Below, piece after piece: positions 685 through 38,713 of a DNA stretch of 43,594 nt. The position numbers were made by a program, and so were the translations under genes. Source of the DNA: a bacterium (GTDB taxonomy: Bacteria; Patescibacteriota; Patescibacteriia; JAACEG01); assembly GCA_030641665.1 (NCBI GenBank), contig DAOWHA010000002.1, forward strand, positions 1 through 43,594, written 5' to 3'. Numbering within the stretch: the stretch's first letter is position 1; each line of letters begins with the position of its first letter. The notes under the pieces are model-generated. The model was given only the letters and a program-made list of their open reading frames with translations, did no database searches and was not told where the DNA came from.

Positions 685-715
685 AAAATTTTGTTATTTA
701 CTTTTTAATGCTTTT

Positions 716-743
716 ATTATATCAAACAGCGAATTAGTGTCAA
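716..743 (-). promoter_or_regulatory. sigma70-type promoter for the LigB/Memo-like gene
   Basis: Minus strand TTGACA-16 nt-TATAAT about 30 nt upstream of ATG 684. Confidence 0.7.
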
Positions 744-750
744 CGCAAAA

Positions 751-5783: not shown

Positions 5784-5809
5784 ATTTTTTTAATTATTTC
5801 TTATATTGC

Positions 5810-5839
5810 CTATTATATCAAATCAGCAGTTGGTGTCAA
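5810..5839 (-). promoter_or_regulatory. sigma70 promoter of the TA operon
   Basis: Minus strand TTGACA-ccaactgctgatttga-TATAAT (16-nt spacer). Confidence 0.75.
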
Positions 5840-5961
5840 TGAAAACGAATCATGAATTAGGAATTAAGGAAACATTAAACAAAATTTAATTCTTGACTAA
5901 TTTCGCGGTCGCGCGCGTCGCTAAAAAATTAAAAATAGGAAAAAATATAAAAATAGGAAAA

Positions 5962-6139
5962 AGTTGACAAGATTGCGCGGTCGCATAATTTCGTCAACTA
6001 TTTTTATTCTTTTTATTTTATTTAATTTTTTGATTTTTAATCTTTTCTGATTTTTCTTTTTTTAATTTTTTTCTTTTTCTGGTTTAATATTAATTATTCA
6101 GAGTTGACGAGATTGTGCGGTCGCATAATTTCGTCAACT
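5962..6139. repeat. Two copies of a 38-bp imperfect palindrome (5962-5999, 6102-6139) flanking a T-rich tract
   Basis: AGTTGAC(A/G)AGATTG(C/T)GCG-GT-CGCATAATTTCGTCAACT twice, 36/38 identical. Confidence 0.85.
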
Positions 6140-6300
6140 CTTTATTTTTTATCTAAAAACAAAACCCCACCCCAACTTAAAAAACTGAGACGGGGAATTT
6201 TTTTGCGATTTTTATTTCTGCTAGATAGGCGTATCGCAATATGTCCCTACATTTATTTATTTAAATATTGCTCTATCTGTTCGCTTTTATATCCAGCTTT

Positions 6301-7033: not shown

Positions 7034-7579
7034 TTATAAATATTTTATAAATTTTTCAATATCTTCTTTTATTAATAATCTTGTAATATTAGCATTCTTC
7101 ATTACGCCATAACTTGGTTGATGGGCAAATCCAATATATTCCACTTTTTTACCTAAACTCTTAACTTTCTTTATCGCTGGCACTAAATCTGTGTCAGATG
7201 ATATTAACACTGCTTCATCATAATAATTTTCATAAGCTCCTACAAGCAAATCAACTGCCATTTGAACATCTACGCCTTTTTCGTGATATTTGCCATTATT
7301 TTGCATTAAGTGACCTTTTTTAATAATAAAATTTCTTTTCAAATTATTAAATAACTTTCTTTGATTATTCCTAAGCGACATCCCTTTCTTATCTCTATTG
7401 TTCTTTGCCCTAATTATTCCGACATAATATCTTAATGACATTATTTTTCTATCTCTTGCTAAAAATTTACAAAAATTAAAATAATTAAAATTAATTGTAT
7501 TTTTTATATTAAGTTCCTTGTCTTTTAATTTAAAATATAAATTTCCGCCGTCAATATAAACTGCGACTTTTTTTATCAT
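7034..7579 (-). CDS. NYN-domain (LabA/DUF88, PIN-like) ribonuclease
   Basis: VYIDGGNLY, EKGVDVQMAVDL, LISSDTDLVP motifs; start moved to ATG 7579 because the longer ORF start lies inside a hairpin. Confidence 0.9.
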   Translation of the reverse strand: MIKKVAVYIDGGNLYFKLKDKELNIKNTINFNYFNFCKFLARDRKIMSLRYYVGIIRAKNNRDKKGMSLRNNQRKLFNNLKRNFIIKKGHLMQNNGKYHEKGVDVQMAVDLLVGAYENYYDEAVLISSDTDLVPAIKKVKSLGKKVEYIGFAHQPSYGVMKNANITRLLIKEDIEKFIKYL

Positions 7580-7589
7580 AACATTATTT

Positions 7590-7638
7590 AAAAAACCCAC
7601 CGGGGTTCCTCTGAAAAACAGAGGAACCAAGAGTGGGT
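7590..7638 (-). terminator. Terminator-like hairpin directly upstream of the NYN start
   Basis: Perfect 10-bp stem GGTTCCTCTG/CAGAGGAACC, outer ACCCAC/GTGGGT stem, then a U-run ending about 10 nt before the ATG. Confidence 0.7.
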
Positions 7639-7695
7639 GGTTTTAGCGAAAATAAGGAAGTTCATCCATATTATTTTCTTATTTCTAATATTATT

Positions 7696-7723
7696 ATATT
7701 AACATAAATAAAAAGTATGTCAA
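7696..7723 (-). promoter_or_regulatory. Promoter of the NYN leader
   Basis: TTGACA-tactttttatttatgt-TAATAT; nearly the same as the promoters at 23899 and 24086. Confidence 0.65.
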
Positions 7724-13428: not shown

Positions 13429-13457
13429 CCTATATAATTTTAACTTTAAAATTCCAT

Positions 13458-13678
13458 GTCTTTGCGAGGAATGAAGTGCAGCGATAGCGGAACGAAATGA
13501 CGAAGCCACACCTAACGGGTGGTCACCCGATAGGGCGACAATCTCATTACTGGACGAAAAAAATCTTTAATTATAATTCTATTCACTCAGTAATGAGATT
13601 GCTTCATCGCTCTCTCTTCCCCGCCTAAATTTTTGTTTCACAAAAACTTAGGCGGGTCGTTCGGCTCCTCGCAAAGAC
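13458..13678. repeat. Palindromic REP/RPE-like element, copy A (two nested inserts)
   Basis: GTCTTTGCGAGGA...GAAGC..CAATCTC-loop-GAGATTGCTTC...TCCTCGCAAAGAC. Confidence 0.9.
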
Positions 13679-13752
13679 AGGAGGGTTAAAATTTAGCAAA
13701 TAATTTAAAATTTAATAATTGATTGTCAAGTTGGTAATTGCAAATTGCAAAT

Positions 13753-16574: not shown

Positions 16575-16630
16575 AAAAATAAATTTAAAAAGTAAAAACG
16601 AAAAAGTAAAAACGATATTTTTTACTTTCT

Positions 16631-16768
16631 GTCTTTGCGAGGAGTGAATGGAGCGATAGCGGAATGAGCGACGAAGCAATCCCATTACTGGACGAAAAAA
16701 TCTTTAATTATAACTCTATTCGCTCAGTAATGAGATTGCTTCGTCGGCTGTCGCCTCCTCGCAAAGAC
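16631..16768. repeat. Palindromic REP/RPE-like element, copy B
   Basis: Same termini GTCTTTGCGAGGAG/CTCCTCGCAAAGAC; loop nearly identical to copy A. Confidence 0.9.
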
Positions 16769-16850
16769 AGTGGCGGAAAATTTCTCGCAAAAACAAATAG
16801 AAAATAATTTTTATTTTTTAGTTGTCGTTTTTATTTTTTCATTTTTCATT

Positions 16851-17864: not shown

Positions 17865-17904
17865 AATATAAAATTATCTTGAATTATAAAATAAAAATTC
17901 CGCT

Positions 17905-18063
17905 GTCTTTGCGAGGAATGAAGTGGAGCGATAGCGGAACGAAATGACGAAGCAATCTCATTACTAACCTCACAAACGATAAGTCATAAATGGTTTATTC
18001 GCTCAGTAATGAGATTGCTTCGTCGCTCTCTCTCACTGCGTTCATTCGGCTCCTCGCAAAGAC
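17905..18063. repeat. Palindromic REP/RPE-like element, copy C (in the ilvE 5' region)
   Basis: Same termini and inner GAAGCAATCTC/GAGATTGCTTC arms. Confidence 0.9.
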
Positions 18064-18120
18064 AGTGTTACACAAAGACATTTCTTGATTTAATAAAATT
18101 TCTTAATATCTTTTATTTTA

Positions 18121-18806: not shown

Positions 18807-18892
18807 CTTTTCTCCTTTTTTTGAAAATTAATATTTTCTACCCGCTGCTGACGGCTTTTATACTTTCTCTGTGGACAAAATTTTCCCTTATT

Positions 18893-19065
18893 GTCTTTGC
18901 GAAGAGGCGATAGCCGACGCGGCAATCCGATTACTGAGCGGACAAATCTTTAATCATAACTTCATTTACTTGGTAATGGGATTGTCGCCCTATCGGGTAA
19001 CCCACCCGTTAGGTGTGGCTTCGTCGCACCTCACTCGCTACGCTCGTTCAGCTCCTCGCAAAGAC
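18893..19065. repeat. Palindromic REP/RPE-like element, copy D (nested insert, opposite orientation to A)
   Basis: GTCTTTGCGA...CTCCTCGCAAAGAC with internal CGCCCTATCGGGTAACCCACCCGTTAGGTGTG. Confidence 0.85.
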
Positions 19066-19131
19066 AGTTGGTTAAACCATTAATAGCGGATAGAAAATTA
19101 TATTGTAAAGAGCGCGCTCCCCCTTTTCCCT

Positions 19132-21197: not shown

Positions 21198-21992
21198 TCA
21201 TTTCAAATTTTTTAAACTTTTTAAAAACTTTTCCGCTTCTTTAAACTCTTGTCCGCGCTTAGCGGAATTATAAGCATTTAAAACCGCGCTTCCTATAACG
21301 GCGATTTCAGCGTCTCCTTTTAATGTTTGAATATGCTTCTTTTCTGAAATGCCAAAACCGATCGCGATCGGAATCTTAAAATATTTTCTTATTTTTTTCA
21401 AATTCGCGCTTAAATTTTTATCCAATGAATTTTTTTGCCCTGTTATCCCTTTTCTTCCGACAAAATAAAGAAATCCTTCAGCGATTTTCGCGTTTTTTTT
21501 CATCCTCTCGGTTGTGCTTGCTGGAGATAAAACTCTGATTAAAATCAGATCATTCTCTTTAGCATATTTTATAAAATACTCGCTGTTCTCTTCTTCTAAT
21601 GGAATATCTGGAAATATCAAGCCGCTGCATCCCGCTTTTCGCGCGTCTTTGCAAAACTTTTCAACGCCATAATTAAAAACAGTATTAAAATAGCCCATAA
21701 AAATCAACGGGATATCAACTTTTTCTGACATCTTTTTCATTAAACCAAAACAGTCTTTTACTCTGATTCCATTATCTAACGCTGTCTGGTTCGCTTGCAT
21801 AATAGTCGGTCCGTCTGCAACAGGATCAGAAAATGGAATTTGCAACTCAATAAAATCAACGCCGCAATCAGCCATTGTCTGAATAAATTTTTCACTTTCG
21901 CTCAAATTCGGATACCCGCAAACAATATGCGCCATAATCCCGACGCGATTTTCTCGCCTAATTTTTTCTAATTGTAAATTTATCTTATTCAT
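21198..21992 (-). CDS. trpA: Tryptophan synthase alpha chain
   Basis: IELQIPFSDPVADGPTI, LIFPDIP, GITG, IGFGIS. Confidence 0.95.
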   Translation of the reverse strand: MNKINLQLEKIRRENRVGIMAHIVCGYPNLSESEKFIQTMADCGVDFIELQIPFSDPVADGPTIMQANQTALDNGIRVKDCFGLMKKMSEKVDIPLIFMGYFNTVFNYGVEKFCKDARKAGCSGLIFPDIPLEEENSEYFIKYAKENDLILIRVLSPASTTERMKKNAKIAEGFLYFVGRKGITGQKNSLDKNLSANLKKIRKYFKIPIAIGFGISEKKHIQTLKGDAEIAVIGSAVLNAYNSAKRGQEFKEAEKFLKSLKNLK

Positions 21993-22626
21993 TATTTTTT
22001 AATAATTTTCTAAATTTTTCAGCTTTTTTAAATACTAACGGCAATGGCGCGCAATAATTGTCGTTTTCTTTTAAATATAATTTTAATTCATCGGGAGAAA
22101 GCCATTTAAAATCAATTACTTCTTTGTCTTTAAAATTTATTTTTATTGTTGGAGTGATAATAAATCCTAATCCTACCCATTCATTGTTTGTAGATGTTTT
22201 ATAATGAAATTTATCAAATATAAAACCTATTGGCTTAATTAATTTATTTTTTAATTTTATAAATTCTTTTTTTGATTTGCACATTTTAATTTTTATTCCG
22301 ATTTCTTCTTCGGTTTCTTTGGCTAAATTTTCATTAAAATCAAGCGGTCGAAAAAATCCATTTTCTTTAATATAACAATTATGACCAGCCGCACCCATAT
22401 CCCATTTTCCAGCGCTATATTTATCATGCTTTTTTGGATTTTTTAATTGAATCCCATATTTATTAGAAAAAGGATAAAAAATCATTGACCAAGTGCTATA
22501 ATGCGTTAACACCGCTCTTGCTCCTTCTGTATGAGCGTGTTTTTTTGAAATTGGTCCGATAATATTACCTTTTGAATCACAATGAATAATATATTCGATG
22601 TCATTCCTTAAAATATTTTTAATCAT
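21985..22626 (-). CDS. Nudix hydrolase (IDI-like) between trpB and trpA
   Basis: WDMGAAGH, NLAKETEEEIGI Nudix box, EVIDFKW; 8-nt overlap with trpA. Confidence 0.7.
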   Translation of the reverse strand: MIKNILRNDIEYIIHCDSKGNIIGPISKKHAHTEGARAVLTHYSTWSMIFYPFSNKYGIQLKNPKKHDKYSAGKWDMGAAGHNCYIKENGFFRPLDFNENLAKETEEEIGIKIKMCKSKKEFIKLKNKLIKPIGFIFDKFHYKTSTNNEWVGLGFIITPTIKINFKDKEVIDFKWLSPDELKLYLKENDNYCAPLPLVFKKAEKFRKLLKNNE

Positions 22627-22642
22627 AAAAATTTTTTAAAAA

Positions 22643-23905
22643 TTAAATCTTGCTCTTTAAAAACTCTTTCCATTTTTTGTCACCGAGCGCTTCCGCTAAA
22701 ATAAAAATATCTTTGTCTCCTCGTCCGGATAAATTCACGACTACTGTTTTGTTTTTGCTTAATTTCGGCGCTGTTTTTATAACTTCAGCGATTGCGTGCG
22801 CAGATTCCAGCGCTGGAATAATCCCTTCTGTTTTTGCCAGCAATTTAAAAGCAGTTAAAACCTCTTTATCAGTCGCGTATTTATACTCCACCCTTCCTTT
22901 TTTAAAAAGCAGTCCGTGTTCAGGTCCAATACCAGCGTAATCCAGCCCCGCTGAAATACTGTGCGTTTTTTCCACCTGCCCGTCGCTGTCTTGCAAAAAG
23001 TAAGATTTGTATCCTTCAACCACGCCTTTTTTGATATTTTTCTGCAGCCTTGCCGCGTGTTCGCCTATTTTCGCTATGCCCTTGCCTCCCGCTTCTACGC
23101 CGATCAACTTCACGCTTTTGTCTTTTAAATACGGGTTAAAAATCCCGATGGCGTTGCTTCCGCCGCCGACACAGGCGATAATATAATCCGGCTTTTTAAT
23201 GTTATAAATATTTTTCAGTTGCTCCTTGACTTCCAATCCTACAATCGTCTGAAAATCCCTAACCATTGAAGGATACGGATGCGGACCAAGCGCGGAACCG
23301 AGCAGATAATAGGTGTCATCAACATTTGTGATCCAATCCTGCATGGTCGCCGTGACTGCGTCCTTTAATCTTTGCGTTCCATGAAACACTTGGATAACTT
23401 CCGCGCCCAGCTGTTCCATCCAAAAAACATTAGGCCTATGACGATCGTAGTCCACTTTGCCCATAAAAACAGAGCATTTAAATCCGAATTTCGCCGCCAC
23501 GGTCGCGGTTGCTAATCCGTGCTGTCCCGCGCCAGTCTCCGCGATAATCCTTTTCTTGCCCATTCTTTTCGCTAACAGCGCCTGCCCTAAAGAGTGGTTT
23601 ATCTTGTGCGCGCCAGTATGGTTTAAGCCCTCGTTTTTAATAAAAATTTTCGCTCCGCGCAAATGCTCGGTTAAATTTTTGGCAAAATAGAGCGGTGTTG
23701 GGCGGCCATCGTAATTCTGATACAGATCCATTAAATCTTTTTGAAACCGCTTGTCTTTTTTCGCTTTACTGTAAGCTGCTTCTAATTCTTCCAGCGCAGG
23801 AATCAGCATCTCTGGCGCGTACCTGCCGCCAAAATCGTTAAAATGCCCGTTTATGTCAGCATCATATTCGGTTTTGATAAAAATATTAGTAGAATCTCTT
23901 GACAT
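22643..23905 (-). CDS. trpB: Tryptophan synthase beta chain
   Basis: HTGAHKINH, ETGAGQHG, CVGGGSNAIG, SAGLDYAG, NLSGRGDKD. Confidence 0.97.
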   Translation of the reverse strand: MSRDSTNIFIKTEYDADINGHFNDFGGRYAPEMLIPALEELEAAYSKAKKDKRFQKDLMDLYQNYDGRPTPLYFAKNLTEHLRGAKIFIKNEGLNHTGAHKINHSLGQALLAKRMGKKRIIAETGAGQHGLATATVAAKFGFKCSVFMGKVDYDRHRPNVFWMEQLGAEVIQVFHGTQRLKDAVTATMQDWITNVDDTYYLLGSALGPHPYPSMVRDFQTIVGLEVKEQLKNIYNIKKPDYIIACVGGGSNAIGIFNPYLKDKSVKLIGVEAGGKGIAKIGEHAARLQKNIKKGVVEGYKSYFLQDSDGQVEKTHSISAGLDYAGIGPEHGLLFKKGRVEYKYATDKEVLTAFKLLAKTEGIIPALESAHAIAEVIKTAPKLSKNKTVVVNLSGRGDKDIFILAEALGDKKWKEFLKSKI

Positions 23906-24075
23906 ATTTTTTATTTATGATAATATATTTTGTAATGATACGAGGGTGGATGTTTATTAACAATCAAAAAACTGATCTGTTTGTATTCACCCCATCCTCG
24001 TATCTTTATTTGCTCTTTCGGGAAATCGTTCTAAACGGTTTCCCTTATTTTTTTGCTTTAAAATATGTCAAAAAT
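23899..24075 (+). ncRNA. Putative small-RNA unit 1 (promoter, stem-loop, terminator)
   Basis: TTGACA-16-TAATAT at 23899-23926; 9-bp stem 23937-45/23996-24004; terminator 24020-44 plus U-run. Confidence 0.45.
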
Positions 24076-24085
24076 CGAATTTTGC

Positions 24086-24260
24086 TTGACATATTTTTTA
24101 TTTATGATAATATTTAAGTATTCATTTCTTCTTCCTTTTTGTTAAGAAGGGGTAAATTTAAAAAGATAAAATCTTTTTACACTTTCTATTGCTCTTTATG
24201 CTAATGGAGATAGGCATCAGTTCTATCTCCTTTTCTTTTTGCCTAAAAATATGTCAAAAT
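24086..24260 (+). ncRNA. Putative small-RNA unit 2
   Basis: Identical promoter at 24086-24113; CTTCTT/AAGAAG hairpin; terminator GGAGATAG/CTATCTCC 24206-30 plus U-run. Confidence 0.45.
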
Positions 24261-24269
24261 AAATCTTGC

Positions 24270-24425
24270 TTGACATATTTTTTATTTGTATTAGTGTATT
24301 AATCATAAAGGGAGGGGTCAGAAAAATCAAAAAAATAGCTTTTTTTTAAAAATGGATTTTTACGCCCTCCCTAAAAAAACAAGTTACGAGAAGACAAAAG
24401 TCTTCTCTTTTTTTTGATTATAAAA
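24270..24425 (+). ncRNA. Putative small-RNA unit 3
   Basis: TTGACA-16-TAGTGT at 24270-97; AGGGAGGG/CCCTCCCT stem 24309-16/24365-72; terminator GAGAAGAC/GTCTTCTC 24388-24407 plus U-run. Confidence 0.45.
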
Positions 24426-24430
24426 TAGTT

Positions 24431-24565
24431 GTCTTTGCGAGGAGGCGAGCGAATGAAATGAGCGAGATGCGACGAAGCAATCTCATTAATTAAGCACGGT
24501 ACCTGAACAACGAGATTGCTTCGTCGCACTTCTCTCGCTACGCTCGTTCGCCTCCTCGCAAAGAC
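24431..24565. repeat. Palindromic REP/RPE-like element, copy E (overlaps the trpF 3' end)
   Basis: Same termini; supplies the last codons (SLRGGERA) and stop of trpF. Confidence 0.9.
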
Positions 24566-25200
24566 AGAATAAACTTTTTCATTTTTGCTTTACTTTTTTT
24601 ACCCGGATATTTTTCAATTCCGCTTGCGGCATCTATTATAGCAGGATTTAATTTTTTAACATACTCTTGAACATTTTCAGGATTTAATCCGCCAGCTAAA
24701 ATCAGCTGGTATTTTTTTTTCTGTAAAATTTTAAACAGTTCAAAATCCTGAAAATTATACTGTTTGCGTTTTGCGCTAATTTTATCCTCAGCGCTGGATG
24801 CGTCTATTAAAAATTTATCAATCTTGCCTCTGAATTTTTCAATTTCACTTAATGATTTTTTTAAATCGCCTGTTAGCTTAAACGCTTTCCAAACTTCAAT
24901 CTGTTTTTTATATTTATCGCAAAATTCAGGTGTTTCATCTCCGTGAAACTGTAAAATGCCGACTAATCCGCTTGTTAATAGCATATCTATTTTTTTCTCT
25001 GGCATATTCACGACAACTGCAACTATTTTAAAACGCTTTTTTTCTTCTTTAATATTCTGAACTATATTTATAAATTTTTCAATAGAAACGCTTCGCGGGC
25101 TTTTTGGAAAATCGACCACAAAACCGAGATAATCAATGTTTAAACTAATGGCATCTCGCGCGTCTTCTAAATTTGTTATTCCGCAAAATTTAATTTTCAT
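24538..25200 (-). CDS. trpF: Phosphoribosylanthranilate isomerase
   Basis: KIKFCGIT, SPRSV, LQFHGDETP, ILAGGLNPENV, DAASGIE. Confidence 0.92.
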   Translation of the reverse strand: MKIKFCGITNLEDARDAISLNIDYLGFVVDFPKSPRSVSIEKFINIVQNIKEEKKRFKIVAVVVNMPEKKIDMLLTSGLVGILQFHGDETPEFCDKYKKQIEVWKAFKLTGDLKKSLSEIEKFRGKIDKFLIDASSAEDKISAKRKQYNFQDFELFKILQKKKYQLILAGGLNPENVQEYVKKLNPAIIDAASGIEKYPGKKSKAKMKKFILSLRGGERA

Positions 25201-25201
25201 A

Positions 25202-26614
25202 TTATTTAATAGGTCTATTATATTTTATCATAATTCCAAAAATCAGCCAAAAAAATAAAATTCCAAAATGCATGCTCCACAGCCAATGATCAAAAAACGC
25301 TATTATTAATAATGACAGGAAGGTAAAAAAAATAAAATTCAAATTTTTAAAATTTAAAAGTCTAATCGCTGAAATTAAAGCCGCGCAAAACAACAAAAAA
25401 CCGATTATGCCCAATTCCGCTAAAATAAGCAGATAAACATTATGAACCGGCTGAAAATGCCATGCCGGATATTTTTTATCTATTTTATGATAATTCGCCA
25501 AAGTGTAGTTTCCAACCCCAGTTCCAAGTATTAAATTATCTTTGATTAAATTTTTCGCCTGTTCCGTATAATCCGCCCGCTCTTCCATTGATTTTATTTC
25601 CAGTCGGTCGCTGATTTTAACACGCGCTAAAAACGGCTCTTGAAAAACCGTAAAAAATATTCCTGTTATTCCTGCTGAAATAATAAATATTTTGATTAAA
25701 TTTAAAATTTCATATTTTCGCTTTCTGATTATTTCCAATAAAAAAATAGCCGCCAAACTTATTGTTAGCGCAAGCCAAGCGCTTCGCGAAAAAGAAACTA
25801 ACAGGGCTGAAAATTGCAAACAATACGCCAATAATAATGAAAGGCGGATTAAAAGCGTTTTATAATTTTGCTGAATCCTGTTTTGAATTTTCAAATACAA
25901 GCCTGTTGTAAAAATCAGACAGATTATTAAATATCCTCCTAAAATATTCGGGTGCTGAAAAGACCCATAAGCGCGAAGCCATCGCCGCAGCGGTGTTTGA
26001 ACTACGGAAACGCCTAATTCCTGCGCGTCATAAAAACTCATCCCGAGCCAGCTGCTGGCAAACGACACTTGCTGAAAAAATTGCCACAAAGCCAAACCGC
26101 TCTGCATAACAGCTGCGGCAATAAACGCGATAAACAGCTTTTGCCAGTTGAAGCGAATGTTAAGCAATAAAAAAAACAGTGCGATCGCTTCAGCGATTTT
26201 AACGGCTGAATACAGGGTTAAAATCCCATCCGCTGACCAAAAAATTGACAAAAAAGAAAAAACAATTAGTGATAAAATTAAAATAAATAATTTTATACGC
26301 GATAAAACAGCTTTATTGCGATAACAATGGGATTGCTTCGTCGCATCTCTCTCACTGCGTTCGTTCGCGCTCCTCGCAAAGACAGTTTTTAATATTTTTT
26401 TGTAATTCTCTTTAATCCTCAGCCGTCTATTTACGGCAATAAACAAAACAAAAAGAGTAATCAACAAAATGTCAATCGCATAAAAACAGATTGTCCCGTA
26501 CTCCCATTTTGCCCCGTTTATAAAAACTTCCCGCAATTTATAACTTGTCTGCCAAGGAAGCAAAAAAACGAAAAAATACAATCCGTATTCTAATAATTTT
26601 TGAAGTCTAAACAT
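25202..26614 (-). CDS. O-antigen ligase family (Wzy_C) membrane protein
   Basis: Multiple TM helices; RAYGSFQHPNILGG, SFSRSAW, LGTGVGNY, PVHNVYLLILAELG. Confidence 0.85.
   Translation of the reverse strand: MFRLQKLLEYGLYFFVFLLPWQTSYKLREVFINGAKWEYGTICFYAIDILLITLFVLFIAVNRRLRIKENYKKILKTVFARSANERSERDATKQSHCYRNKAVLSRIKLFILILSLIVFSFLSIFWSADGILTLYSAVKIAEAIALFFLLLNIRFNWQKLFIAFIAAAVMQSGLALWQFFQQVSFASSWLGMSFYDAQELGVSVVQTPLRRWLRAYGSFQHPNILGGYLIICLIFTTGLYLKIQNRIQQNYKTLLIRLSLLLAYCLQFSALLVSFSRSAWLALTISLAAIFLLEIIRKRKYEILNLIKIFIISAGITGIFFTVFQEPFLARVKISDRLEIKSMEERADYTEQAKNLIKDNLILGTGVGNYTLANYHKIDKKYPAWHFQPVHNVYLLILAELGIIGFLLFCAALISAIRLLNFKNLNFIFFTFLSLLIIAFFDHWLWSMHFGILFFWLIFGIMIKYNRPIK
26326..26383. repeat. 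Single arm of the palindromic repeat, in frame inside the O-antigen ligase gene
   Basis: Minus strand GTCTTTGCGAGGAGCGCGAACGAACGCAGTGAGAGAGATGCGACGAAGCAATCCCATTG encodes VFARSANERSERDATKQSH. Confidence 0.85.
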
Positions 26615-27518
26615 ATTTTTTAAAAAATTTATCCCTGTAATGCTCTCTTCTGTCGTTGCTGTGGAATTTTAGCATTTTATCATTGATGATTACCCGCGTA
26701 TCTCTGTTTGCCATTGCGCGCAATTTTGGAGATAAAATTTTTAACTGAATTTTTTTTGCCAATCTTTCTAAAAAATCAAAATTATACAAAAAAGACAGCG
26801 ACGACATAAAAGTAATTCTCTGCTTTTTATCTAAGATTATCGGCTGAAAATTCGGCAAATGTTTTTTTATCCAACTGTTCGCGGATCTGAATTTTTCATA
26901 AATTTTATCTTTATTATAAATCGGAAAAATTGTTGCGAGCCAATAATAAAAATAGATGTCGTTTTTATCTAACGCGATATTTTTCAAATCTAAATTATCC
27001 TCGCTGATAAAAAAAGTCAGGCAAATTTTATCTTTTATATTTTTCTCTGTCGGACGCAATCCGAACAGCTGGCAAATTCCAGCGCAAATCATTCTTGTGA
27101 GCCAAATCCGATTTTTTTTTGTAATAATAAACAGGTCAATATCGCTATTTTTTCTCGCGTTATTGCTCGGCATAAAATTCACAACAGCCGCCATTTTAAT
27201 AAAAGAAAAAATAGTAAATATCCTGATTGCGAATTTCGCTTTTCTAAATTTTTTAATGCTTTGCGAATTTCGCTTTTCGCGGATTTTAATAATCTCCTTG
27301 CGTCCGCGCAAAAAATAAAAGTTATTTTTCTTTTCTATTTTATCGCTTAAAATTCCGCTTGCTAAAATTTTTTTAATATTTTCTAAACCGCAATCATCGC
27401 TGTTAAATCCGTCTTGAAAATAACAAAATCGCCAAATCTCATTTTCCGTAAGCGGATAATCAAACAGATCAAAAAAAACAACAGACGAAATTATCGCTTT
27501 TTGTAAAACTATTGACAT
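26607..27518 (-). CDS. Pol-beta-like nucleotidyltransferase-family protein
   Basis: FDLFDYPLT N-terminus; NNARKNSDIDLFII; KICLTFFISED. Confidence 0.6.
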   Translation of the reverse strand: MSIVLQKAIISSVVFFDLFDYPLTENEIWRFCYFQDGFNSDDCGLENIKKILASGILSDKIEKKNNFYFLRGRKEIIKIREKRNSQSIKKFRKAKFAIRIFTIFSFIKMAAVVNFMPSNNARKNSDIDLFIITKKNRIWLTRMICAGICQLFGLRPTEKNIKDKICLTFFISEDNLDLKNIALDKNDIYFYYWLATIFPIYNKDKIYEKFRSANSWIKKHLPNFQPIILDKKQRITFMSSLSFLYNFDFLERLAKKIQLKILSPKLRAMANRDTRVIINDKMLKFHSNDRREHYRDKFFKKYV

Positions 27519-27680
27519 ATTTTTTATTTATAGTTTAATAATCATATACCTCCCAAGCAACGGAGGTTCAGGTATTAACCTCTCCTATGCGCGAGGAGAG
27601 AACCCCCATATCTACACAGCAATTAGTAGCCAAAAAACGGGCGAAAAGGCGAAAGATGTAGATATTGGGGGATTTTTTTT
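27512..27680 (+). ncRNA. Putative small-RNA (or 24-aa peptide) unit 4
   Basis: TTGACA-16-TTTAAT; hairpins 27548-67 and 27580-600; terminal stem 27603-16/27657-71 plus U-run; ORF 27587-27661 MREERTPISTQQLVAKKRAKRRKM. Confidence 0.4.
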
Positions 27681-27692
27681 GAAAAATAAACT

Positions 27693-27858
27693 GTCTTTGC
27701 GAGGAGCTGAATAAGCGTAGCGAGTGAGGCGCGACGAAGCAATCTCGTTAATAGACAAACAAAATTATAATTATAGATTTGTTCGCTTAGTAATGGGATT
27801 GCTTCGCTCCGTTGCACTCCGCTCGCAAAGACAGAATATTATAATTCCTCGCAAAGAC
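27693..27858. repeat. Palindromic REP/RPE-like element, copy F (27693-27832), plus a duplicated right end (27847-27858)
   Basis: Same termini; extra CCTCGCAAAGAC 14 nt downstream. Confidence 0.9.
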
Positions 27859-27893
27859 AGAAATAAAAAAACTCCGCTAATAAAAAAATTGAT

Positions 27894-38493: not shown

Positions 38494-38713
38494 GTGGGAG
38501 GTGAATTAATTCGTAATTACAAAATGTCTTTACGAGGAGCTGAACGAGCGTAGCAAGTGAGATGCGACGAAATAATCTCGTTAATAACGCAAAAATTATA
38601 ATCATAGATTTGTTCACTCAGTAATGAGATTGCTTCGCTCCGTTGCACTCCGCTCGCAAAGACAACTGGACTTAGCATTTAGTAATTCGTAATTAATTCA
38701 TCGCTCGCACCAC
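38494..38713 (+). promoter_or_regulatory. Ribosomal protein L1-binding leader with an expanded stem
   Basis: GUGG-GAG-[GUGAAUUAAU...AUUAAUUCAU]-CG-CUCGC-A-CCAC ending 9 nt before rplA; matches the known L1 operator layout. Confidence 0.6.
38526..38663. repeat. Palindromic REP/RPE-like element, copy G
   Basis: GTCTTTACGAGGAG...GCTCGCAAAGAC; close to copy F. Confidence 0.9.

What the first reader, a model, noticed from the sequence alone, without database searches (positions are those of the whole stretch)
23899..24425. Tandem array of three promoter/variable RNA/terminator cassettes antisense inside the trp locus
Seen: units start at 23899, 24086 and 24270 (187 and 184 bp apart). Each has TTGACA-tattttttattt..-TA(A/G)T(A/G)T, a unique ~100-nt body with a purine-rich SD-like tract locked in a stem (GAGG/CCTC, AAGAAG/CTTCTT, AGGGAGGG/CCCTCCCT), and a + strand intrinsic terminator. 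Junctions are conserved as an 11-bp inverted repeat AAATATGTCAA-N12/14-TTGACATATTT and differ by a 2-bp indel, arguing against coding constraint. The first -35 overlaps the trpB start codon. Inference: an undescribed small-RNA cassette array (constant boundaries, variable cargo), possibly orphan RNA antitoxins/decoys for the NYN-type RNase with the same promoter, or trans-acting sRNAs.
Basis: partly seen in the sequence, partly recalled or inferred. Interest (0 to 1): 0.75.

Follow-up and report, generated by a model that had tools for sequence, protein, structure and literature searches.

The report
Three tandem antisense small-RNA genes

Summary
Units start at 23899, 24086 and 24270 (+). Each has a near-consensus sigma-70 promoter, a hairpin body of about 110-120 nt with no sequence similarity to the others, and a one-directional intrinsic terminator. 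The array fills a 630-bp gap between trpF and trpB, both on the minus strand.

Comparative data give most of the answer:
- A sister species (TrpB 93-94% identical) has one unit there, orthologous to U3. Its promoter again overlaps the trpB ATG, and both hairpins show compensatory changes, while trpB fourfold sites are 52% diverged.
- More distant relatives have no unit and a tight trpF-trpB junction.

So this is a selected, lineage-specific antisense transcription unit that expanded to three copies.

The "constant boundary" is a promoter type common in AT-rich Patescibacteria; in relatives it also drives protein-coding genes. Its reverse complement reads as an SD-less start context (AAAAAATATGTCAA), which trpB and a 303-aa gene have adopted as their start codon.

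The "SD-like lock" idea fails: none of 33 genes has an SD. The NYN link is only a shared promoter; that unit is a conserved NYN leader.

Function is inferred, not shown: cis-antisense pairing or transcriptional interference on trpB is most likely. No RNA data were available.

The parts
22643..23905 (-). trpB (tryptophan synthase beta). Its ATG (23903-23905) lies inside the U1 -35 motif TTGACAT.
   Evidence: PF00291
23899..23926 (+). U1 promoter: TTGACA, 16-nt spacer, TG-a-TAATAT
23932..24054 (+). U1 predicted RNA, about 122 nt. Long hairpin at 23932-24009; terminator stem at 24020-24044 with a T-run to 24054.
   Evidence: z = -8.2
24055..24085 (.). Junction 1-2. It contains AAAATATGTCAA (24060-24071), which is inverted relative to the next -35.
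24086..24113 (+). U2 promoter, identical to the U1 promoter over 29 nt
24119..24240 (+). U2 predicted RNA, about 121 nt. Hairpins at 24133-24152 and 24159-24179; terminator at 24206-24230 with a T-run.
   Evidence: z = -2.4
24241..24269 (.). Junction 2-3, with AAAAATATGTCAA at 24245-24257
24270..24297 (+). U3 promoter: same -35 and spacer, but a degenerate -10 (TAGTGT)
24303..24416 (+). U3 predicted RNA, about 112 nt. Hairpin GGGAGGG/CCCTCCC at 24309-24372; terminator at 24388-24407 with a T-run. It is the ortholog of the single unit in the sister species.
   Evidence: (z = 18.6)
24430..24566 (.). Palindromic MITE-like repeat (ends TGTCTTTGCGAGGAG) inserted just after U3. It overwrites the last roughly 10 codons of trpF.
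24538..25200 (-). trpF (PRAI)
27512..27680 (+). U4, a fourth unit with the same -35 and spacer. Its -35 overlaps the ATG of the 303-aa ORF 26607-27518 (-). It has three hairpins, the last a terminator. An ortholog exists in the sister species.
7591..7723 (-). U5: the same promoter (1 mismatch) followed by a leader and terminator, ending 11 nt before the NYN start codon. This is a conserved NYN leader.
7034..7579 (-). NYN-domain protein gene

Best explanation
The array is three independent short transcription units, best read as small non-coding RNA genes of about 110-125 nt, on the strand antisense to the trpF-trpB-nudix-trpA genes.

Each unit has a near-consensus housekeeping promoter (TTGACA, a T-rich 16-nt spacer, extended -10), one or two stable hairpins, and a one-directional intrinsic terminator that stops transcription before the next unit or before trpF.

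Origin. The ancestral state, kept in the sister species, is one unit (the U3 type) placed divergently against trpB. Its -35 supplies the new trpB start codon. In the window's species two further units (U1, U2) now sit between U3 and trpB. U1 and U2 share a homologous terminator-to-promoter junction and so probably arose by local duplication or promoter-to-promoter recombination.

Mechanism (inferred, not shown). No good trpB-strand promoter lies in the gap, so trpB is probably read through from trpF. In that case the + strand RNAs are perfectly complementary to the trpF-trpB intercistronic mRNA, and the strong + promoters fire head-on into that transcription. Together they would set or uncouple trpB-trpA expression, through antisense pairing and processing and through transcriptional interference.

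U4 has the same topology, lying between rmuC and the 303-aa gene, in both species.
For: Anatomy:
- Promoters and terminators lie in register, and the terminators work in one direction only. Their reverse complements lack adjacent T-runs.
- The folds are significantly stable.

Selection:
- The sister-species loci L117 and L118 carry one orthologous unit (z = 18.6), while trpB fourfold sites are 52% diverged.
- The -35 plus spacer is identical over 20 nt.
- The terminator stem GAGAAGAC/GTCTTCTC becomes GAGGAGAC/GTCTCCTC.
- The hairpin GGGAGGG/CCCTCCC becomes GGAGGG/CCCTCC. Both arms change together.
- The rest of the gap is not conserved.
- U4 and its sister ortholog keep the promoter position and terminator but carry different inner hairpins at the same places.

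Lineage-specific gain:
- Relatives with 81-87% TrpB identity have trpF and trpB overlapping or at most 85 bp apart (L001 has no trpF; trpC-trpB gap about 148 bp), with an ordinary promoter and a TrpB that starts MKNIFIK. The window species and its sister start MSR..NIFIK.

Likely read-through:
- There is no strong trpB-strand promoter in the gap.

No coding signal:
- The candidate sORFs are not conserved between the window and the sister species.

Stability within the species:
- The array is 100% identical in three independent assemblies of the same species.
Against: - There is no transcript evidence of any kind.
- U1 and U2 have no ortholog to test for constraint, so they could be recent neutral duplicates.
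- The U3 -10 is degenerate in the window.
- Co-transcription of trpF and trpB is assumed.
- Trans targets cannot be excluded or predicted from 43 kb.
- The U4 -10 (TTTAAT in the window, TTTACT in the sister) lacks the canonical A at position 2.
- Only two or three sequences support each compensatory change.
Confidence: 0.5

Rival explanations
1. Trans-acting regulatory sRNAs. Each RNA is made for its own sake and pairs with mRNAs elsewhere through its single-stranded linker or loop. The trp location would be incidental, simply a permissive intergenic site.
For: - The units are stand-alone promoter/terminator units of typical sRNA size.
- U1 and U2 share a single-stranded linker ATTGCTCTTT between hairpin and terminator.
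- The U3 linker CCTAAAAAAACAA is identical in the sister species.
- Tandem sRNA genes are well known (PMC4211561).
Against: - The complement of the linker is not enriched in the window: 12 matches against 10.9 expected.
- The bodies share no seed.
- Two independent loci (trpB and the 303-aa gene) show the same precise placement against the start codon of a downstream cistron, in two species. That argues that position matters.
Confidence: 0.22
2. By-product containment. The A-rich SD-less start region of a gene reads, on the opposite strand, as a -35 plus T-rich spacer, which creates a strong spurious divergent promoter. The hairpins and terminator would then be selected only to stop that transcription before it runs antisense into the upstream gene. 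The RNAs themselves would have no function, and U1 and U2 would be neutral duplicates.
For: - The reverse complement of the promoter is the genome's typical start context.
- The ATG within the motif is used by trpB and by the 303-aa gene.
- The same promoter type is generic in the clade.
- The terminators are the best-conserved part of U4.
Against: - The non-terminator hairpin of U3 is conserved, with a compensatory indel.
- U2, U3 and U5 carry the motif without any divergent gene.
- Three perfect extended -10 elements would be easy to lose if the promoters were harmful.
Confidence: 0.15
3. Mobile or recombining RNA cassette system, or RNA decoys/antitoxins for the NYN RNase. The constant junction would be a recombination site that lets diverse RNA cargos accumulate, or the RNAs would titrate the NYN nuclease expressed from the same promoter.
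For: - There is a sharp boundary between the constant part (about 75 nt, 90-100% identical) and the variable transcribed part in U1 versus U2.
- The number of units differs between species.
- U1 and U2 are flanked by 12-13-nt inverted repeats.
- The NYN gene carries the same promoter and hits a candidate defence model (HEC-09).
Against: - No integrase or transposase lies within about 10 kb.
- There are no near-identical full-length copies and no target-site duplications.
- The motif was found in no relative beyond the species pair in the genome, metagenome and viral scans, apart from generic promoters.
- The NYN leader is conserved with unrelated promoter spacers in relatives.
- NYN homologs are near-ubiquitous in Patescibacteria: 1603 hits.
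- The array lies 16 kb from the NYN gene.
Confidence: 0.07

Closest known systems
Cis-encoded antisense sRNAs opposite an intercistronic region, for example E. coli GadY at gadX-gadW
   Same: A short, independently promoted and terminated RNA is encoded opposite the spacer between two co-oriented cistrons. It is perfectly complementary to the polycistronic mRNA and is expected to direct processing or differential expression of the flanking genes.
   Different: Here there are three unrelated RNAs in tandem. The -35 overlaps the downstream cistron's start codon. The organism lacks SD-dependent initiation. No expression or processing data exist.
Tandem 'sibling' sRNAs: OmrA/OmrB, PrrF1/PrrF2, AbcR1/AbcR2, csRNAs (review PMC4211561)
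   Same: Several sRNA genes lie head-to-tail, each with its own promoter and intrinsic terminator. They are thought to arise by local duplication. OmrA and OmrB also keep conserved ends with a divergent centre.
   Different: Sibling sRNAs are more than 65-80% identical or share seed regions. Here the transcribed bodies cannot be aligned, and only the non-transcribed promoter and junction are shared.
Inherently bidirectional or divergent promoters in AT-rich DNA (Warman et al. 2021, from my own knowledge)
   Same: An AT-rich promoter sequence carries signals on both strands, and divergent short transcripts are produced next to gene starts.
   Different: In this case the opposite-strand signal is a translation start (ATG plus an A-rich leader), not a second -10. 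In addition, the divergent transcript has conserved hairpins and a dedicated terminator.
Type III toxin-antitoxin loci (ToxIN-like)
   Same: For U5 only: a promoter, a structured RNA and a terminator are followed by a nuclease gene that must be expressed by read-through.
   Different: There are no tandem RNA repeats. The nuclease is a NYN domain protein, not ToxN/AbiQ. The trp array is not adjacent to any nuclease gene.

Membership tests
Sibling sRNA family (tandem paralogous sRNAs) | Each copy has its own promoter and Rho-independent terminator | tested here: met
   Consensus scans and folds. This is prediction only; there is no transcript evidence.
Sibling sRNA family (tandem paralogous sRNAs) | High sequence identity or a shared seed among the RNA bodies (more than 65% in described cases; PMC4211561) | tested here: not met
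   Pairwise alignment against shuffles gives z = 1.35-2.9 for U1/U2/U3. Only a 10-nt linker and the junction are shared between U1 and U2.
Cis-antisense RNA to an operon mRNA | The RNA is encoded opposite a transcribed region of the target mRNA | tested here: inconclusive
   The units lie between the co-oriented trpF and trpB genes, and no good trpB-strand promoter lies in the gap. Co-transcription itself is not shown.
Cis-antisense RNA to an operon mRNA | The antisense transcript is detectable and affects the level or processing of the target | not testable with these tools
   No RNA-seq data or genetics are available for this uncultured organism.
Integron gene-cassette array | An adjacent intI tyrosine recombinase with attI | tested here: not met
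   The called genes within about 10 kb have no integrase domains.
Integron gene-cassette array | attC sites (57-141-bp imperfect palindromes) at cassette ends, with promoterless ORF cargo | tested here: not met
   The junction repeat is 11-13 nt and is itself the -35. The cargos are non-coding, and each has its own promoter.
MITE | Terminal inverted repeats flanking the element | tested here: inconclusive
   U1 and U2 are bounded by TTGACATATTTT...AAAATATGTCAA. U3, U4, U5 and both sister-species units lack the right arm.
MITE | Many near-identical copies, and target-site duplications | tested here: not met
   The bodies are unrelated. No target-site duplications are seen in the flanks. No copies occur in other loci.
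Type III toxin-antitoxin (ToxIN/CptIN/TenpIN) | Tandem direct repeats of antitoxin RNA immediately upstream of the toxin gene, separated from it by a terminator | tested here: not met
   The trp array has no downstream co-oriented gene. U5 has a terminator before the NYN gene but no internal repeats.
Type III toxin-antitoxin (ToxIN/CptIN/TenpIN) | A toxin of the ToxN/AbiQ-type endoribonuclease fold | tested here: not met
   The gene is a PF01936 NYN domain protein. Its PADLOC hits are NYN and HEC-09 only.
Any Rfam family | A score at or above the family's gathering threshold | tested here: not met
   Searches returned only sub-threshold chance hits.

The most novel reading that the evidence does not exclude
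The invariant promoter block (-35 plus T-rich spacer, whose reverse complement is an SD-less start site) doubles as a recombination handle. Through it, unrelated structured-RNA modules would be captured and stacked in front of genes. This would be a promoter-mediated 'RNA cassette' mechanism in CPR bacteria that both rewires the start codon of the neighbouring gene and builds arrays of diverse antisense or trans RNAs.
Probability: 0.07. Interest if true: 0.8.

Novelty: new member of a known kind. Interest (0 to 1): 0.42.

Why it matters
Almost nothing is known about non-coding RNA or gene regulation in Patescibacteria (CPR). These bacteria have tiny genomes and few transcription factors, and this lineage has no Shine-Dalgarno-based initiation.

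This locus offers three things:
- A conserved, structurally constrained antisense unit wedged into a truncated trp operon.
- A clear evolutionary series of 0, 1 and 3 units across related species.
- A case where a promoter's -35 became the start codon of the divergent gene.

It gives a concrete, testable handle on antisense or interference-based operon control in CPR. It also shows how one AT-rich sequence can serve as a promoter on one strand and a translation start on the other. If the RNAs turn out to be inert by-products, the locus is still a useful example of containing spurious transcription.

Tried and rejected
1. Rfam, at gathering thresholds and in permissive mode, on all five units: nothing.
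2. Scan of viral contigs with the 20-mer promoter: 17 single hits, all lacking the -10 and terminator context, so chance.
3. Scan of metagenome contigs with a 28-nt degenerate promoter pattern: 16 hits, none from the same lineage. They are strong promoters of unrelated AT-rich organisms, for example upstream of 5S rRNA and of AbrB-like antitoxin genes. The motif is therefore not a family marker.
4. The motif is absent from 80 TrpB-anchored loci from GTDB species representatives.
5. Exact-protein look-up of the window's TrpB translation failed, but the cluster representative P0001 retrieved contigs of the same species.
6. Small ORFs:
   - The 72-aa and 55-aa + strand ORFs through U1 run across the terminator and the next promoter.
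   - The U3 21-aa ORF is frame-broken in the sister species.
   - The junction micro-ORFs (MSSKIRF..., MSSKIYF..., MSK*) are not conserved.
   All were rejected as coding.
7. SD sequestration was rejected because the genome is SD-less.
8. Minus-strand terminator function of the hairpins was rejected, because no T-run follows their reverse complements. The partial exception is U3, with a T-run 8 nt away.
9. Search for a seed target of the shared U1/U2 linker: no enrichment.
10. BLAST of the unit bodies against all fetched loci: only self hits and orthologs.
11. Extending the genome with two more look-ups gave almost no new sequence.
12. Derivation of the junction from the reverse complement of the trpB 5' codons is suggestive (a shared ATATTTTTA; repeat D4) but not significant, and was left open.
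Full report
**What is there**

The window is 35% GC and comes from an uncultured Patescibacteria (Parcubacteria/Moranbacteria-like) bacterium. trpB (22643-23905) and trpF (24538-25200) both lie on the minus strand and are separated by about 630 bp.

On the + strand of that gap there are three units, starting at 23899, 24086 and 24270.

| Unit | Promoter | Predicted RNA | Terminator stem | Fold z-score |
|---|---|---|---|---|
| U1 | TTGACA-16-TGaTAATAT | about 122 nt | 24020-24044 | -8.2 |
| U2 | identical to U1 over 29 nt | about 121 nt | 24206-24230 | -2.4 |
| U3 | same -35 and spacer, weaker -10 (TAGTGT) | about 112 nt | 24388-24407 | -5.1 |

- Promoter and terminator calls come, the folds.
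- Each terminator stem is followed by a T-run.
- The reverse complements of the terminators are not followed by T-runs, so they work for + strand transcription only.
- The first -35 (TTGACAT) contains the reverse complement of the trpB ATG.

**The family within the window**

The same 18-mer occurs twice more.
- At 27512 (+) is U4. Its -35 overlaps the ATG of the 303-aa ORF 26607-27518, and it is followed by three hairpins, the last a terminator.
- At 7723 (-) is U5, with one mismatch. A hairpin and a strong terminator follow, ending 11 nt before the start codon of an NYN-domain gene.

Other good TTGACA promoters in the window have unrelated spacers. The five bodies cannot be aligned with one another. 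No Rfam family matches any of them.

**Comparative genomics: the trp locus**

- Contigs of the same species from three independent assemblies carry a 100% identical array.
- A sister species (TrpB 93-94% identical; L117 = GCA_034660735.1, and L118) has a 273-bp trpF-trpB gap with one unit.
  - Its promoter, CTTGACATATTTTTTATTTATGATAAAAAT, again overlaps the trpB ATG.
  - Its body is orthologous to the window's U3 (z = 18.6; alignments).
  - Between the two species, trpB fourfold-degenerate sites differ at 52%, and the rest of the gap is not conserved. The unit is therefore under purifying selection.
  - Both hairpins show paired changes. The terminator stem GAGAAGAC/GTCTTCTC becomes GAGGAGAC/GTCTCCTC. 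The first hairpin GGGAGGG/CCCTCCC becomes GGAGGG/CCCTCC. Independent folds give the same architecture.
- Relatives with 87% TrpB identity (L125, L126) and 81-84% identity (L001-L004) have no unit.
  - In L002-L004 trpF and trpB overlap or are at most 27 bp apart; in L125 the gap is 85 bp. L001 has no trpF (trpC-trpB gap about 148 bp).
  - Where a gap exists (L125, L126), it holds an ordinary TTGCAA-N-TATAAT promoter on the trpB strand.
  - Their TrpB starts MKNIFIK. In the window species and its sister it starts MSR(D/N)xxNIFIK, using the ATG inside the -35 motif.

The likely history is that a unit was acquired upstream of trpB in the common ancestor of the two species and supplied a new start codon. 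The locus then either expanded to three units in the window's species or contracted in the sister.

U1 and U2 share a homologous 3' junction. The T-run, the sequence GCYTWAAAATATGTCAAAA and the promoter are 90-100% identical. Their terminator stems are equal in length and position but differ at five base pairs, all compensated. The transcribed bodies are otherwise unrelated.

**Comparative genomics: U4**

U4 also has a sister ortholog.
- Its promoter block is TTAACATATTTTATTTTTATGATTTACT, and it overlaps the ATG of the 305-aa gene.
- The terminator is conserved.
- The two inner hairpins are replaced by different hairpins at the same positions.
- That locus abuts an assembly gap (a run of N) in L117, so it should be read with some care.

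**What the constant boundary is**

It is a promoter type, not a cassette-specific site.
- In a relative, L128 at 1071, the identical 20-mer plus TGaTATTAT sits about 30 nt upstream of a 135-aa protein gene.
- A close variant precedes an AbrB-like antitoxin gene in L127, L104 and L105.
- The metagenome scan with a 28-nt pattern returned only unrelated AT-rich organisms, in which the motif sits in ordinary promoter positions, for example before 5S rRNA.
- Its reverse complement, ATAAATAAAAAATATGTCAA, is a perfect example of this genome's start context. All 33 ORFs examined have A/T-rich upstream regions without any GGAGG-like SD.

This explains three things:
- why trpB and the 303-aa gene could adopt the ATG within the motif;
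- why the junction looks palindromic (AAAATATGTCAA on one strand, TTGACATATTTT on the other);
The purine arm is 5' in U1 and U3 and 3' in U2 and U4.

**The NYN link**

U5 is a leader of the NYN gene.
- In relatives whose NYN proteins are 82-84% identical, the same TAAAACCACCCACTCT...GGTGGGTTTTTT terminator lies directly before the NYN ATG. The promoters there have unrelated spacers.
- A 65%-identical homolog again has an A-tract / hairpin / T-tract about 25 nt before its ATG.
- NYN homologs are very common in Patescibacteria: 1603 hits at E below 1e-20.

U5 is therefore a candidate attenuator of a conserved gene. It shares only its promoter with the trp array, which lies 16 kb away. I see no evidence for a decoy or antitoxin relationship.

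**Mechanism**

Shown by sequence and comparison:
- promoter-like and terminator-like signals in register;
- stable hairpins;
- purifying and compensatory evolution for U3 and U4;
- lineage-specific gain;
- no coding signal.

Inferred:
- The units are transcribed.
- trpB is read through from trpF, because no good trpB-strand promoter exists in the gap.
- The RNAs are therefore antisense to the intercistronic mRNA, and the strong promoters fire head-on into operon transcription.

The same topology holds for U4 between rmuC and the 303-aa gene. In both loci, and in both species, the unit starts exactly at the 5' edge of the downstream cistron and stops before the upstream one. That makes a position-dependent (cis) role the best guess.

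Trans-acting sRNAs, and mere containment of a spurious divergent promoter, remain serious rivals. A recombining cassette system or an NYN decoy is unlikely.

**Verdict**

This is a real, selected set of previously undescribed small transcription units in a CPR bacterium. I classify it as new members of a known kind (antisense or small RNA genes). Interest is moderate.

Noticed in passing
window 13457-13679, 16630-16795, 17904-18064, 18892-19066, 24430-24566, 27692-27859, 38525-38664: A palindromic MITE-like repeat of about 125-225 bp with ends TGTCTTTGCGAGGAG / CTCCTCGCAAAGACA. Its end motif matches 17 times against 0.8 expected. Copies sit directly after the terminators of U3 and U4, and both are absent from the corresponding sites in the sister species (U4 site and trpF-trpB gap).
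   Followed up: partly
window 24538-24566 (trpF 3' end) and 26290-26384 (inside ORF 25202-26614): The repeat has been absorbed into coding sequence. It rewrites the last roughly 10 residues of TrpF (...FILSLRGGERA* against ...LLRNIFKI* in the sister species). It also adds an in-frame 26-aa insertion (ARSANERSERDATKQSHCYRNKAVLS) to the Wzy_C/O-antigen-ligase-like protein, which the sister ortholog (78% identical) lacks.
   Followed up: yes
window 7580-7695 (-); L127 222-338; L128 1605-1715; L132 800-880: A conserved leader precedes NYN-domain genes: an A-tract, a long hairpin with an ACCCACC/GGTGGGT base, and a T-run, 10-25 nt before the ATG. It is present in relatives down to 65% protein identity and has no Rfam match. 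It is a candidate attenuator or autoregulatory element of a widespread Patescibacteria nuclease gene.
   Followed up: partly
whole window (33 ORF starts): No Shine-Dalgarno-like sequence occurs upstream of any ORF. The start contexts are A/T-rich (…AAAAAT ATG…), which implies SD-independent initiation in this lineage.
   Followed up: partly
window 21198-25200; L002-L004; L117 11238-11847: The trp cluster here is reduced and rearranged. The order is Wzy_C gene, trpF, (array), trpB, a NUDIX-like 213-aa gene, trpA, with no trpE/G/D/C upstream. Moranbacteria relatives keep trpG-D-C-F-B-A. The sister species additionally has a HigB / HTH_3 toxin-antitoxin pair inserted between trpB and the NUDIX-like gene.
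   Followed up: partly
L098, L104, L105, L111, L128 at 1071, L127 at 2232: The same 20-28-nt promoter string (TTGACATATTTTTTATTTRTG.TAT.AT) recurs upstream of unrelated genes in unrelated AT-rich organisms, including 5S rRNA and AbrB-like antitoxin genes. This suggests a convergent 'optimal' promoter with a T-tract spacer.
   Followed up: partly
L117 6686-6766: An assembly gap (81 N) has the same roughly 35-nt sequence duplicated on both sides, within the 5' end of the 305-aa gene next to the U4 ortholog. This is a scaffolding artefact to keep in mind when using that record.
   Followed up: no
window 5800-6200 and 700-745 (-): There are perfect 12/12 promoters with an extended -10 at 5839 (-) and 743 (-), and strong convergent terminators at 6100-6141 (+) and 6195-6165 (-), in a roughly 1-kb stretch with few genes. 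This region may hold further small transcription units.
   Followed up: no
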